From a virus (lineage: Duplodnaviria > Heunggongvirae > Uroviricota > Caudoviricetes), in the IMG/VR virus record IMGVR_UViG_2703718778_000011: a stretch of DNA of 22,102 bases; one strand, 5' to 3'. Numbering within the stretch: the first letter of the stretch is position 1; every line of letters starts with the position of its first letter. A program made the position numbers. This document shows positions 9,001 to 12,000 of the stretch, piece by piece.

Positions 9001-12000
9001 CGCTCAAGCTGAATCAGCAGCCGGACAGAAGAGGGATTACGGTCACCCTTTGAGGTGGTCTCCACCAGTGACTGCACCCCGAAGGTGACCCGCAGACGGT
9101 CAATGTTCGCTGACGTGATGGTGCGCGTCACCGGCTTTGCCTTCGTCACCTCCACGCCCAGTGCGGTTTCCGCCCCGGAGGACTCAAAGCCTTCCGGCGG
9201 TGTCTGCTCCTGCTCCCCGGCACGCCAGACGGCGGTCACACCGTGTATCACGGGATTACCGTCCGTGTCCGTCAGCGGGGTTTTGTTCACCAGAATACTC
9301 TGCAGTCCCTTCACCGGGCCTTCCACCGGTCCCTCACCAATGGCATCAATCACGCTCATCATCTGCGTGGATTTGAGATTGTCCTTCGCCTCACGCGGTG
9401 TGTGCCCCTTGCCGCCCCCTTTACCCACTCTGTCCCCCTCTCCTGTCTGATGTCTGATGTCTGAATCTGTTTATGCCCAAAAACAACAGGCACCCCGGAG
9501 GGTGCCTGTGTCATGACGGAATAAAATTTCTGAAATTCTTCACATTTCCGGCAATTGCCTGTAGCCGCAATAATGACGCTGCGTTACATTTTTGATGCCT
9601 GAAAAATAACTCCATAACGTTAATCTTCATCGTTCTCTCCCGCAGCTCCGCTGATTCTGCGGGATTTTTTTATCCCTTAAACCCGGCACGATGTTATCTG
9701 TCTTCTTCCACAGATACCCGCCTGGCTTCCGCTCCCCCGCTACCGGATAAAAAGTCTGAATTTATTCACATTTCTGCAAATTACCTGTAGCCACAATAAT
9801 GACGCTGCGTTACATTTTTTGCGGGTAAATAAAAATAAAACGCCAACAGGTTAGTCAACATCGTTCTCTTCCCGCAGGCGCCGAGCACTGCGGGATTTTT
9901 TTATTTTCATCCTCGCCCGATAACCACCACTTTCCCGTCACTGCCCTCATCACGGGTGCTGATGTCCTGGGATATCCGTCGTGAGCCAACCAGCATTTCA
10001 CCGTAAGGCACCGGCATCGGGTTCCCCTGGGCAATCATGTTGTCCAGTGACGAAAAATACGTGTTCTGTCTGCCGTTATCCGTGCTTTTGTACTCCGGCG
10101 TCTTTGCCTTCGGGGCCAGCATCTGGGCCACACCACCCAGTATCATGCTGGCACCCAGTGAGAACAGCATCGTGGTGGCAGTCAGCCCTCCGGCACTCAG
10201 GGCTGCGCCCCACAACGCCATCATTGCACCGGCGGTGAAGAAAGAGCCCACGATGGCTGCTGCCCCCAGCACCACCTGAAAAACACCATTTCCCCCGGCC
10301 CCTGCCAGCCGCGGTACAATATGAATCACGGCCCTCCCGCTCAGCGGTTCATGAAGACGGGCATACACCGCCTCCGGCGCGGTATCCTCACCGGCAATAC
10401 GTATCTGGTACCAGCCTTCGTTCATCTGACAGCGGAATCCCGGCACCTGCAGCGACAGGGCACGGATAGCCTCCGCTGCCGTGTTCACATACAGGCTGAT
10501 GCGGCGACCAAATCGTTGTAAATCCCCGTGAAGGCAGATGCGGACCAGTGGCGGTGACGCCAGACAGAATGCGTTCGTCGTTGCCATTTCTCTGAATACC
10601 TCTCCCGTTTACTCAGTTGTTCAGGTATATGGTGAAGCAGCTCACCGTTGCCACAGTAAATGGCGGCATGATTCGGCACCGATGCGCCAAAGCAGCACAG
10701 CAGGATATCGCCTGCCTGTGCACAGGACGGAGACACACGGTAAAAGCCGTTTTCCGCCAGGTTGTCCAGGTACAGGTTCTGACCGTTGCGCCACCAGTCA
10801 TCCTCGCGGTGAAAATCCGGCATCTCAATCCCCGCCAGATGGTATGCATCCAGGAACAGGGTGTAACAGTCCGTCACACCGTGTTCAAAGCGCCGTCCGG
10901 TCAGGTGCGGCACACAGCGGAACCGGTGAATTTCCCCCCGGCTGACCAGCCACCAGGGCAGTGCGCTTTTTATCTGCAGCCGCCGGTCAGCCTCGCTCAG
11001 CCAGGGCAGACCACCGGGATGACTGTGGACCAGCGCCACAATCTCCCCCTGCATCTCTGCCCGCAGCCAGTCTTCCGGTGCAATACGAAAATATGCCTCA
11101 GGCTCTGCAGAGATATTCACGCACGGCTGGTACAGGTTGCCCTCCGGCGTGCTTATCACGAAGCCGCACGACTCCTCAGGCGCACACCGCCGGGCATGCG
11201 CCAGAATCGCTGATTCAGTCTGTGTCATAAAACAGGATTTACTGCGAAAGTTTATTAATGGAAAGGAAACCGCCAAAATTAACCGCCATGCCGCGCATCT
11301 CACACCCGCGCATGTATTTACTGCATCTGTCCTTCCGGATATCCGTGGTGGGGTTGTCGAACTCATCCGCCACTGCCGGACCGTTATACCCGCATTCATC
11401 GCCCCGGTAATCCCACATACAGGTGTTCGCCAGCATGATGCGACCGGGAAACAGCGCCCCGTCCGTCTCCGTCGGTGTCGCCAGCACAAACGAGGCCGTC
11501 ATGGCTGTCAGCGATGACATCTGCTCCACCACCCACCGGTCCGTCAGCTCCTGCTCCGGGTCGGCCTCCGGATTCCCCGCCACAAAATTCACCGCATCCA
11601 GAAAACGGGCATACACCCGGCGGCGGACCACCGTGGCACCCACCAGGCTCTGCAAATCCTCCGCCATCCCGGTGACAAGGCCGAACAGATTGGACACCGT
11701 CAGCGACGGGCGGGCACTGCTGCCCTTTCCGTTCATCTCAAAGCCGCTGCCCTCAATCGGGTACGCCTCATACTTCCGCCCCTGCCAGGTCACCGGCTCC
11801 CCTTTTTCATTCAGCTCATTGCAGAAAAAATACCGTTCACCGCCCTGCACAGTCAGGTCGATTTCCCAGAGCACCACCCGCGGTGACTGCTCTGATTTAA
11901 CCGACTCGTTCAGGCTTGCTTCGTGAATATCCTGCATATATCCGCCCATAAAAAAGGGGCGCAACCGCGCCCCGAACAATAAAAGTCCAATTTAAAATAA

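What the first reader, a model, noticed from the sequence alone, without database searches (positions are those of the whole stretch)
9429..9906. Non-coding insert between I and J with two tandem ~165-bp modules ending in plus-strand terminators
In lambda, I and J are adjacent. Here ~480 bp separate them with no ORF of 60 aa or more on either strand. The insert holds two ~85%-identical direct repeats, each ending in a GC hairpin plus T7 run that is a terminator only for the plus strand, antisense to the tail operon, plus one minus-strand hairpin/T-run at 9476-9508. Each module also carries a conserved 9-codon mini-ORF (MTLRYIFDA / MTLRYIFCG). I could not find a convincing sigma-70 promoter. 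Candidate explanations: a pair of small antisense RNAs, a tandem cis-regulatory or attenuator element, or the scar of a mobile element. This is the least explained structure in the window.
Basis: seen in the sequence. Interest (0 to 1): 0.6.

Follow-up and report, generated by a model that had tools for sequence, protein, structure and literature searches.

The report
Two prophage small-RNA genes (PasB/EcOnc22 family)
The non-coding insert between tail genes I and J holds two side-by-side genes for small regulatory RNAs of a family already found by experiment in pathogenic E. coli (PasB in EPEC, EcOnc22-24 in O157 Sakai); the first copy is a known RNA, and the second is a diverged paralogue I found described nowhere.

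Summary
Window 9429-9906 is non-coding and holds two modules, each ending in a plus-strand hairpin followed by T7.

The modules are not mysterious. Each is a stand-alone gene for an Hfq-binding small RNA of about 75-80 nt, read antisense to the tail operon.
- The same I-J position and strand hold PasB in EPEC E2348/69: 83 nt, seen on a Northern blot, Hfq-dependent, with RIL-seq partners ler, perB, bfpB, bfpI, ftsZ and galE.
- The same position holds EcOnc22/23/24 in O157 Sakai: an Hfq-CRAC peak, a ~85-nt Northern band, destabilised without hfq.
- Copy 1 matches the Sakai RNA at 74 of 76 positions; the two differences lie in the terminator loop.
- Copy 2 has a different single-stranded body (GUUAGUCAAC instead of the family's GUUAAUCUUC).

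Related prophages carry 1 to 4 such modules at this site. The window's pair is a recombinant of a four-module array.

Every module keeps an invariant TCTGA-N6-TCACATTT box (CRP-like) at a fixed distance from a TAnnnT -10. The predicted start matches the published 5' end. The mini-ORF ATGs lie upstream of that start.

What is new is modest: an undescribed paralogue, the tandem arrays, the PasB-EcOnc22 link and the candidate CRP site. Interest is low to moderate.

The parts
9444..9464 (.). (TGTCTGA)x3 heptamer repeat. On the J strand it reads TCAGACA and lies just 5' of J's ribosome-binding site. It is not part of the sRNA genes.
   Evidence: Read from the sequence. Copy number ranges from 0 to 8 among 111 related I-J intergenic regions.
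9478..9509 (-). Intrinsic-terminator-like hairpin plus U-run on the tail-operon strand, between the sRNA modules and J. It is an ancestral feature of the I-J junction.
   Evidence: Found by the pattern scan. Folds at -23.1 kcal/mol, z = -5.1. Present in 108 of 111 related loci, with two unrelated stem sequences and one compensatory variant. Lambda has an analogous hairpin in its 60-bp I-J gap.
9529..9547 (+). Module 1 upstream box TCTGA-AATTCT-TCACATTT. It matches TGTGA-N6-TCACA at 9 of 10 positions (CRP-like). Its centre is at 9536.5, about -60.5 from the predicted start.
   Evidence: Two copies in the window against 0.02 expected. TCTGA is invariant in all 54 unique modules and TCACATTT is exact in 52 of 54 when modules are anchored on the terminator. 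CRP binding itself is inferred.
9569..9574 (+). Upstream -10-like hexamer AATAAT (TATAAT in PasB of E2348/69). It is an alternative promoter element. The mini-ORF ATG (9573) overlaps it.
   Evidence: TATAAT, AATAAT or CATAAT sits at this offset in 42 of 54 unique modules and is degenerate in the rest.
9585..9590 (+). Module 1 -10 element TACATT (TAnnnT). The predicted start is at about 9596-9598.
   Evidence: TAnnnT lies at a fixed offset of 45 from TCACA in 52 of 54 unique modules. The aligned position of the PasB 5' end from RNA-seq (83 nt) falls 6-7 nt downstream.
9597..9671 (+). sRNA copy 1 (~75 nt), an allele of EcOnc22/23/24. It has an A-rich 5' part, a single-stranded body with the family core GUUAAUCUUCAU (9619-9630), and a terminator hairpin (9639-9663) followed by U7.
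   Evidence: 74 of 76 positions match the Sakai RNA, with the body identical. Fold. Covariance model score 79.9 bits, though this sequence was in the training set. Homologues are shown experimentally.
9672..9754 (.). Spacer between the modules. It is homologous to the spacer between modules 1 and 2 of four-module arrays.
   Evidence: Window 9444-9817 aligns to module 1, the spacer and the module-2 promoter of the L008 array at 89.7%.
9755..9773 (+). Module 2 upstream box TCTGA-ATTTAT-TCACATTT (CRP-like). Its centre is at 9762.5.
9795..9800 (+). Module 2 upstream hexamer AATAAT. The mini-ORF ATG at 9799 overlaps it.
9811..9816 (+). Module 2 -10 element TACATT. The predicted start is at about 9822-9823.
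9823..9902 (+). sRNA copy 2 (~80 nt), a diverged paralogue. In its body, GUUAGUCAACAU (9850-9861) replaces the family core. Terminator hairpin at 9871-9894, then U7 at 9896-9902, which abuts I's stop codon (9907-9909).
   Evidence: 72% identical to copy 1 over the RNA. Its body matches module 3 of four-module arrays at 91.7%. Fold. Covariance model score 69.6 bits, though this sequence was in the training set. Expression is not shown.

Best explanation
The insert is a non-coding 'moron' made of two independent small-RNA genes of the PasB / EcOnc22-24 family. They lie between the stop codon of tail gene I and an ancestral hairpin in front of J, and are read antisense to the late (tail) operon.

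Each gene has four parts:
- an invariant TCTGA-N6-TCACATTT box, probably the binding site of an activator and possibly cAMP-CRP at about -60.5;
- a weak -35 with a TAnnnT -10;
- a largely unstructured RNA of about 75-80 nt with an A-rich 5' part;
- a GC hairpin followed by U7, which serves both as the terminator and as the Hfq-binding 3' end.

The RNAs are made in the lysogen, are bound and stabilised by Hfq, and act in trans by base-pairing with host and virulence mRNAs.

Copy 1 is an allele of EcOnc22. Copy 2 has a different single-stranded core, so it most likely addresses different targets. The pair arose by recombination within a four-module array.

Shown: homology, position, anatomy, and the expression and Hfq dependence of close homologues in other strains. 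Inferred: expression of these two copies, the start sites, the CRP link and any target.
For: Identity with known sRNAs:
- PasB of EPEC E2348/69 maps to NC_011601 1466343-1466261, between I and J and antisense to them. It is 83 nt, was verified by Northern blot, and its Northern probe is the reverse complement of the terminator.
- That I-J intergenic region aligns with both window modules: 77% over 204 nt for copy 1 and 70% over 165 nt for copy 2.
- PasB abundance falls in the hfq mutant (log2 -6.8 and -2.4). It is always the 3' partner in RIL-seq chimeras with ler, perB, bfpB, bfpI, ftsZ, galE and rplX.
- EcOnc22/23/24 of O157 Sakai give plus-strand Hfq-CRAC peaks in Sp15, Sp14 and Sp11, a ~85-nt Northern band, and are destabilised without hfq.
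- After correcting the genome-version offset (+128 to +131, calibrated on HnrS), the EcOnc22 peak covers positions 152-215 of the 240-bp Sakai I-J intergenic region. That is the RNA body.
- Window copy 1 differs from that RNA at 2 of 76 positions.

Position:
- Of 120 IMG/VR loci fetched with the terminator pattern, 119 show an I homologue, a J homologue, or both next to it. In the loci where both genes are present the element lies between them and antisense.
- In the window, the covariance model gives significant hits only at the two modules.

Anatomy:
- Only the terminator helix is conserved; the body is single-stranded.
- The promoter geometry is invariant across 54 unique modules.
- PasB is higher in the condition where the CRP-repressed sRNA Spot 42 is about 5-fold lower. 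This fits CRP activation, but only circumstantially.
Against: - No transcript data exist for this strain or for copy 2.
- The start site is predicted, not mapped. A second, better-looking -10 (AATAAT at 9569-9574) lies 16 nt upstream and would give a ~90-nt RNA.
- The box has TCTGA rather than TGTGA in every module, and its centre is 1 bp off the canonical -61.5. The bound factor may therefore not be CRP.
- No regulatory outcome has been shown for PasB or EcOnc22; the review lists the targets as unknown.
- My duplex predictions against the RIL-seq partners were no better than shuffled controls.
- The covariance model scores for the two window copies are partly circular, because both sequences were in the training alignment.
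Confidence: 0.85

Rival explanations
1. The RNAs act mainly in cis. During lytic growth they pair perfectly with the I-J junction of the late mRNA, which is their exact complement. This would trigger processing or alter J expression, or the late mRNA would act as a sponge for the sRNAs.
For: The genes are fully antisense to the late transcript and keep this position and orientation in almost all of ~120 related loci. The minus-strand complement also folds stably.
Against: In lysogens, where PasB and EcOnc22 were detected, the late operon is silent. Even so, the RNAs are abundant, bound by Hfq and ligated to distant mRNAs. The RNA bodies diversify freely between modules, which a cis-antisense role would allow but does not require. 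This reading does not exclude a trans role.
Confidence: 0.12
2. The modules are cis-acting attenuators or terminators of the tail operon, with no RNA product of their own.
For: A real terminator-like hairpin lies on the tail-operon strand at 9478-9509.
Against: That hairpin is outside the repeated modules and is also present in lambda, which has no modules. The module hairpins have their U-runs on the plus strand only. Homologous modules do give discrete small RNAs.
Confidence: 0.03
3. The insert is a scar or a copy of a mobile or repetitive element of REP/MITE type.
For: There are multiple copies per genome (median 3, up to 9) and variable copy number at the site.
Against: The copies are one per prophage, or a local array, always at the I-J junction. 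One orphan half-module was seen elsewhere (L072). Multiplicity follows the number of lambdoid prophages. There are no terminal inverted repeats; the only inverted repeat found is 12 nt of A/T.
Confidence: 0.02
4. The conserved 9-codon mini-ORF encodes a micropeptide or leader peptide.
For: The ATG and the first seven codons are identical in the two modules.
Against: There is no Shine-Dalgarno sequence. The ATG overlaps the upstream -10-like hexamer and lies upstream of both candidate start sites. In other family members the frame is not kept: E2348/69 has TATAATTTCGCTG with no ATG. The conservation is explained by promoter elements.
Confidence: 0.02

Closest known systems
EcOnc22 / EcOnc23 / EcOnc24 of E. 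coli O157:H7 Sakai (prophages Sp15, Sp14, Sp11; Tree et al. 2014, PMC4104026; review PMC7873438)
   Same: Same I-J intergenic position and strand. The single 240-bp module is about 87.5% identical to window module 1. The RNA itself matches at 74 of 76 positions, with the body identical. It is Hfq-bound, gives a ~85-nt band, and is destabilised without hfq.
   Different: Sakai has one module per prophage; the window has two. Copy 2 has no counterpart in Sakai's three I-J intergenic regions. Targets are unknown.
PasB of EPEC E2348/69 (Pearl Mizrahi et al. 2021, PMC8550237; census by Zhu, Shabalina and Storz 2026, bioRxiv 10.64898/2026.05.13.724894)
   Same: Same position, orientation, promoter geometry and terminator stem, and the core ..AUCUUCAU.. 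just upstream of the terminator. It is an Hfq-dependent sRNA with RIL-seq partners.
   Different: Only 69% (copy 1) and 64.5% (copy 2) identical over the RNA, with a longest shared word of 17 nt. The published census used word size 28 and more than 75% coverage, so it would not count the window type. My search reproduces its count of about 1,106 genomes for the E2348 type, against 804 genomes for the EcOnc22 type. That census reports no tandem copies: the minimum distance between pasB copies is 28 kb.
Tandemly duplicated sibling sRNAs (OmrA/OmrB, PrrF1/PrrF2, Qrr1-5)
   Same: Adjacent paralogous Hfq sRNA genes, each with its own promoter and terminator. They share 3' ends and differ in part of the body.
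   Different: Those are core-genome genes with a known regulator and known targets. These are prophage cargo in variable arrays of 1-4, with no mapped regulator or target.
Other EHEC prophage sRNAs: HnrS (EcOnc10-12), the anti-sRNAs AgvB and AsxR, Esr41
   Same: Short Hfq-binding sRNAs carried as non-coding morons in lambdoid prophages of EHEC and EPEC, often in several copies per genome.
   Different: Different sequences and sites. HnrS is absent from the window. There is no Rfam match to AgvB, AsxR, Esr41 or any other family.

Membership tests
PasB / EcOnc22-24 prophage sRNA family | Sequence homology to the experimentally defined RNAs | tested here: met
   Copy 1 matches Sakai EcOnc22 at 74 of 76 positions and the E2348/69 I-J region at 77% over 204 nt. 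Copy 2 matches at 70% over 165 nt (E = 2e-12), with the promoter and terminator conserved.
PasB / EcOnc22-24 prophage sRNA family | Located between tail genes I and J of a lambdoid prophage, transcribed antisense to them | tested here: met
   Window coordinates. The same holds in E2348/69, Sakai and about 119 of 120 IMG/VR loci.
PasB / EcOnc22-24 prophage sRNA family | GC hairpin plus U7 intrinsic terminator at the 3' end (the Hfq-binding module) | tested here: met
   Stem CCCGCAG/CTGCGGG followed by U7 in both copies.
PasB / EcOnc22-24 prophage sRNA family | Conserved single-stranded core (GUUAAUCUUC) just upstream of the terminator, which is the proposed seed | tested here: inconclusive
   Copy 1 has it exactly (9619-9630). 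Copy 2 has GUUAGUCAAC, with 3 of 10 positions changed, as in module 3 of four-module arrays. Copy 2 is a family member by descent but probably differs in specificity.
PasB / EcOnc22-24 prophage sRNA family | Discrete RNA of about 80 nt whose abundance depends on Hfq | not testable with these tools
   Shown only for homologues in other strains.
Class I CRP-dependent promoter | 22-bp CRP site with core TGTGA-N6-TCACA | tested here: inconclusive
   TCTGA-N6-TCACA matches 9 of 10 core positions and 14 of 22 of the full consensus. The right half TCACATTT is a perfect match. The half-sites are invariant across 54 unique modules while N6 varies. No weight-matrix library was available, and the consensus is from my own knowledge.
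Class I CRP-dependent promoter | Site centred near -61.5 from the start site | tested here: inconclusive
   The centre lies 48.5 bp upstream of the first base of the TAnnnT -10 (49.5 in lacP1, from memory). That is about -60.5 from the predicted, unmapped start. It would be -44.5 from the alternative start.
Class I CRP-dependent promoter | Transcription depends on cAMP-CRP | not testable with these tools
   Only a correlation is available: PasB is up where Spot 42 is down.
Moron (extra transcription unit inserted in a phage late operon) | Extra DNA between two genes that are neighbours in related phages, with its own promoter and terminator | tested here: met
   The lambda I-J gap is 60 bp, against 240 bp in Sakai and 478 bp here. 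The terminator is shown and the promoter is inferred. Unlike classical morons, the cargo is non-coding and in the opposite orientation.
Any Rfam 15 family (including AgvB, AsxR, Esr41, STnc100, IsrG) | Covariance-model match | tested here: not met
   There was no hit at gathering score in the whole window. In 9350-9980 at E up to 10 only two noise hits appeared. The four-module array gave none.
HnrS (EcOnc10-12) | Sequence identity to the 66-nt HnrS | tested here: not met
   The HnrS sequence was taken from the paper's primer table. It gives 0 matches in the window with up to 3 mismatches. It also sits elsewhere in the prophage, upstream of the packaging and head genes.
Repetitive or mobile element (REP/MITE) | Dispersed at unrelated loci, with terminal inverted repeats | tested here: not met

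The most novel reading that the evidence does not exclude
The I-J junction of lambdoid prophages in Escherichia is an expandable cassette site for sRNA genes.

- It holds arrays of 1-4 diversified PasB-like genes.
- All share one invariant activator box (perhaps CRP) and one terminator, but carry at least three different single-stranded cores.
- The arrays are reshuffled by recombination between modules.

A prophage could thereby deliver, under one signal, a changeable set of seeds that rewire host and virulence mRNAs. The PasB family would then be much larger than the published census, because it includes EcOnc22-24 and at least 14 sequence clusters.
Probability: 0.45. Interest if true: 0.5.

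Novelty: new member of a known kind. Interest (0 to 1): 0.3.

Why it matters
- None of the matching sites in 5,426 complete RefSeq E. coli genomes that the searches listed carries an annotated feature for it. There is no Rfam family either. Genome readers will therefore keep rediscovering this element as an 'unexplained' gap.
- Linking PasB (EPEC) with EcOnc22-24 (EHEC) joins two literatures. Together they show that about a third of complete E. coli genomes carry a member: about 1,106 genomes for the PasB type and 804 for the EcOnc22 type.
- STEC strains often carry several copies, and some carry arrays of up to four different paralogues.
- If the invariant box is a CRP site, these prophage RNAs would tie virulence and host mRNAs (ler, perB and bfp in EPEC) to carbon-source sensing.
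- For this window itself the result is mostly a clarification: the structure is an ordinary, known kind of prophage cargo.

Tried and rejected
- **HnrS (EcOnc10-12).** I first suspected it because it is multicopy, sits in prophage late regions and has a CUUC motif. I rejected it on sequence and on position.
- **Rfam.** Nothing was found at gathering score or at E up to 10.
- **Sigma-70 consensus scan.** It found 0 promoters on either strand. The promoter proposal comes from comparative conservation instead.
- **TTCACA as a -35.** Rejected: it lies 24 nt from the upstream hexamer and about 40 nt from the TAnnnT.
- **Target and seed prediction.** I ran RNAduplex for PasB, copy 1 and copy 2 against the six RIL-seq partner fragments. 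The z-scores ranged from -1.8 to +1.7 against shuffles, so the test was uninformative. PasB and ler do share a 9-nt perfect match (UCCUUCACA / UGUGAAGGA), but copy 1 does not keep it.
- **Taxonomic spread.** The exact-pattern scan of 185,579 species genomes found only E. albertii and two contaminant-like contigs. Diverged relatives outside Escherichia could have been missed.
- **Literature.** I found no report of an I-J sRNA array. The one apparent hit was a false match ('actin tail assembly protein IcsA').
- **Structure covariation.** Only the 7-bp terminator stem is predicted, with one compensatory pair. That is too little variation to add support.
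Full report
**1. What is in the sequence**

The window is the tail-gene region of a lambdoid prophage of Shiga-toxigenic E. coli, with the tail operon on the minus strand. It is 100% identical over the insert to several STEC chromosomes, for example NZ_CP075852.

J (5733-9428, GTG start) and I (stop codon at 9907-9909) are separated by 478 bp with no internal ORF longer than 51 aa. 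Phage lambda has only 60 bp between I and J.

The insert holds two modules, 9516-9676 and 9742-9907.
- The in-register repeat families are 86% identical over 78 nt, 75% over 40 nt and 100% over 17 nt.
- Overall identity is 76.5%.
- Start-to-start spacing is 226-231 nt, with a unique spacer between the modules.
- Each module ends in CCCGCAG-loop-CTGCGGG-A-T7 on the plus strand.
- A strong hairpin with a T-run on the minus strand lies at 9478-9509.

**2. Identification**

Rfam 15 has nothing here. Literature searches led to prophage sRNAs of EHEC and EPEC.

HnrS (EcOnc10-12) was excluded by sequence and by position.

PasB of EPEC E2348/69 is listed at NC_011601 1466343-1466261, minus strand, 83 nt.
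- Fetching that region shows it lies in the 240-bp gap between I and J of prophage PP6, antisense to them.
- The published Northern probe is the reverse complement of the terminator.
- That intergenic region aligns with both window modules from the upstream box to the T-run. blastn gives 77% over 204 nt and 70% over 165 nt.

EcOnc22/23/24 are listed in Table S2 of Tree et al. 2014 as plus-strand Hfq-CRAC peaks in Sakai prophages Sp15, Sp14 and Sp11. They give a ~85-nt Northern band and are 'destabilised' without hfq.
- In NC_002695.2 each of these prophages has an identical 240-bp I-J gap with one module.
- The 2014 coordinates refer to an older sequence version. Using HnrS as a ruler (peak at 2234239, RNA at 2234370-2234435) the offset is +128 to +131.
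- With that offset the EcOnc22 peak falls on intergenic positions 152-215. That span runs from the -10 to the 5' arm of the terminator.
- Window copy 1 differs from the Sakai RNA at two positions, both in the terminator loop.

Copy 1 is therefore an allele of a known, experimentally detected Hfq sRNA. A 2021 review lists its targets as unknown.

**3. The family and its arrays**

The terminator pattern retrieved 120 IMG/VR loci. In practically all of them the element lies between I and J homologues, antisense.

Of 111 usable intergenic regions, about 95 hold one module, about 5 hold two, one holds three and seven hold four. The covariance model search gives the same picture. Two complete genomes show the four-module array in full (L008 and L009).

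The 136 modules collapse to 57 unique sequences and 14 clusters at 88% identity. The bodies fall into three classes:
- A, CUCC...GUUAAUCUUC, found in most modules, including PasB and EcOnc22;
- B, GGUGACUAUUCGU, which has a different terminator stem;
- C, CGCCAACAGGUUAGUCAACAUCGU, found in module 3 of four-module arrays and in window copy 2.

The window insert is a recombinant of the four-module array.
- 9444-9817 matches module 1, the spacer and the module-2 promoter at 89.7%.
- 9809-9904 matches the module-3 body and terminator at 91.7%.
- The junction is at the -10/start region. The module-2 body and all of module 4 are missing.

Counts among 5,426 complete E. coli genomes:

| Form | Genomes |
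|---|---|
| EcOnc22 type (median 3 places, up to 9) | 804 |
| Four-module array | 67 |
| Window-type copy 2 with its spacer | 13 |
| E2348-type PasB (median 1 place) | 1,106 |

The last figure equals the PasB count in the 2026 census (1,107 chromosomes).
- That census used word size 28 and more than 75% coverage. It cannot see the EcOnc22 type, whose longest word shared with PasB is 17 nt.
- It reports no tandem copies.
- The 2021 PasB table notes EHEC homologues for PasA and PasD but none for PasB.
- Every matching site listed in the search outputs shows no annotated feature for the element in RefSeq.

Outside E. coli, an exact-pattern scan found only E. albertii and two contaminant-like contigs.

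**4. Anatomy and likely mechanism**

I anchored modules on the terminator, which is independent of the promoter.
- 132 of 136 modules have TCACATTT exactly, about 100-170 nt upstream of the terminator end.
- All 54 unique modules have TCTGA exactly six bases upstream of that box.
- 52 of 54 have TAnnnT at offset 45.
- The N6 and the flanks vary.

In the window:

| Element | Module 1 | Module 2 |
|---|---|---|
| Box | 9529-9547 | 9755-9773 |
| -10 (TACATT) | 9585-9590 | 9811-9816 |
| Predicted start | ~9597 | ~9823 |

The aligned position of PasB's RNA-seq 5' end (83 nt) and the ~85-nt band of EcOnc22 agree with this start.

A second hexamer (TATAAT in E2348/69, AATAAT here, at 9569-9574 and 9795-9800) lies 10 nt upstream of the -10. 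It is present in 42 of 54 modules and could be a second promoter giving a ~90-nt RNA. The data cannot decide between them.

TCTGA-N6-TCACATTT matches the CRP core TGTGA-N6-TCACA at 9 of 10 positions. It would be centred at about -60.5, close to the class I position. The consensus and the -61.5 rule are from my own knowledge.

In EPEC, PasB is higher in the 'non-activating' condition, where the CRP-repressed sRNA Spot 42 is about 5-fold lower. This fits CRP activation but does not prove it.

The RNAs fold as an unstructured, A-rich body followed by the terminator hairpin and U7. This is the usual build of Hfq-dependent base-pairing sRNAs.

PasB is strongly reduced in the hfq mutant. It is the 3' partner in RIL-seq chimeras with ler, perB, bfpB, bfpI, ftsZ, galE and rplX. 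No regulatory outcome has been published.

The most likely mechanism is therefore as follows. The RNAs are transcribed in the lysogen from an activator-dependent promoter, are bound by Hfq, and pair in trans through the single-stranded core. Copy 2, with 3 of 10 core positions changed, probably has other targets.

My own duplex predictions were uninformative.

**5. Other features of the insert**

- The mini-ORFs start at 9573 and 9799, inside the upstream hexamer and upstream of both candidate starts. They lack a ribosome-binding site, and the frame is not kept in other family members. They are a side effect of promoter conservation.
- The minus-strand hairpin at 9478-9509 is not part of the repeated unit.
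  - It is present in 108 of 111 loci, with two unrelated stem sequences and a compensatory variant.
  - Lambda has an analogous hairpin in its 60-bp gap.
  - It is therefore an ancestral terminator-like element of the late strand just before J. The sRNA modules were inserted between I's stop codon and this hairpin.
  - Its role is inferred only: it may stop polymerase that has not been antiterminated.
- A (TGTCTGA)n repeat next to J's ribosome-binding site varies from 0 to 8 copies.

**6. Rivals**

- A cis-antisense action on the I-J junction of the late mRNA is possible and is not exclusive of the trans role. Nothing supports it beyond geometry.
- The attenuator, mobile-element scar and micropeptide readings are each contradicted by specific results.

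**7. Verdict**

The finding is real and correctly located. It is a known kind of element.
- One copy is an allele of EcOnc22.
- The other is an undescribed paralogue of the same family.
- What is new is secondary: the PasB-EcOnc22 link, the 1-4-module arrays and their recombination, and the invariant CRP-like box.
- Interest is low to moderate.

Noticed in passing
window 12147-13241 (minus strand): An OmpC-like porin gene sits between tail genes M and L. It is annotated 'porin OmpC' in the identical region of NZ_CP075852. It is a protein-coding moron inside the tail operon.
   Followed up: no
window 9444-9464: A heptamer repeat (TGTCTGA)x3 lies immediately upstream of J's ribosome-binding site on the J strand. 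Copy number among 111 related loci is 0 (55 loci), 1 (1), 2 (46), 3 (6), 4 (2) and 8 (1). It is a variable-number repeat in the J leader.
   Followed up: partly
window 9478-9509 (minus strand); lambda NC_001416 15445-15504: A terminator-like hairpin on the late-operon strand just before J is conserved in 108 of 111 loci, with two unrelated stems and a compensatory change. Phage lambda has an analogous hairpin in its I-J gap. A terminator inside the tail operon is unexpected, and its role is unknown.
   Followed up: partly
L008 1501-2456 (NZ_AP042510) and L009 1501-2422 (NZ_CP129259): These hold four-module arrays of different PasB-like sRNA genes between I and J, 956 and 922 bp long. Module 2 has a different body and a different terminator stem (CCCGUCAAUAUCC...ACGGGAG). 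The array is present in 67 of 5,426 complete E. coli genomes, including O113:H21, O91:H21 and O104:H21 strains.
   Followed up: partly
L072 1653-1719 (minus strand): An orphan 3' half of a PasB-like module is fused to the 3' end of an I-like gene fragment, about 2.7 kb upstream of the real I gene. It looks like a recombination remnant.
   Followed up: partly
L130 (Parendozoicomonas haliclonae, 460 nt) and L132 (Streptomyces flavalbus, 3.4 kb): These short contigs in unrelated species' assemblies are about 86-97% identical to this E. coli prophage tail region. They are almost certainly contamination.
   Followed up: yes
NC_002695.2 (Sakai) against the coordinates in Tree et al. 2014, Table S2: The 2014 EcOnc coordinates are shifted by about +128 to +131 relative to the current RefSeq version, at least between 2.17 and 2.90 Mb. 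Used unconverted, they place EcOnc22 on the wrong part of the intergenic region.
   Followed up: yes
window 5041-5703 (minus strand): An Ail/Lom-family outer-membrane protein gene lies directly downstream of J, as in lambda. This is ordinary.
   Followed up: no
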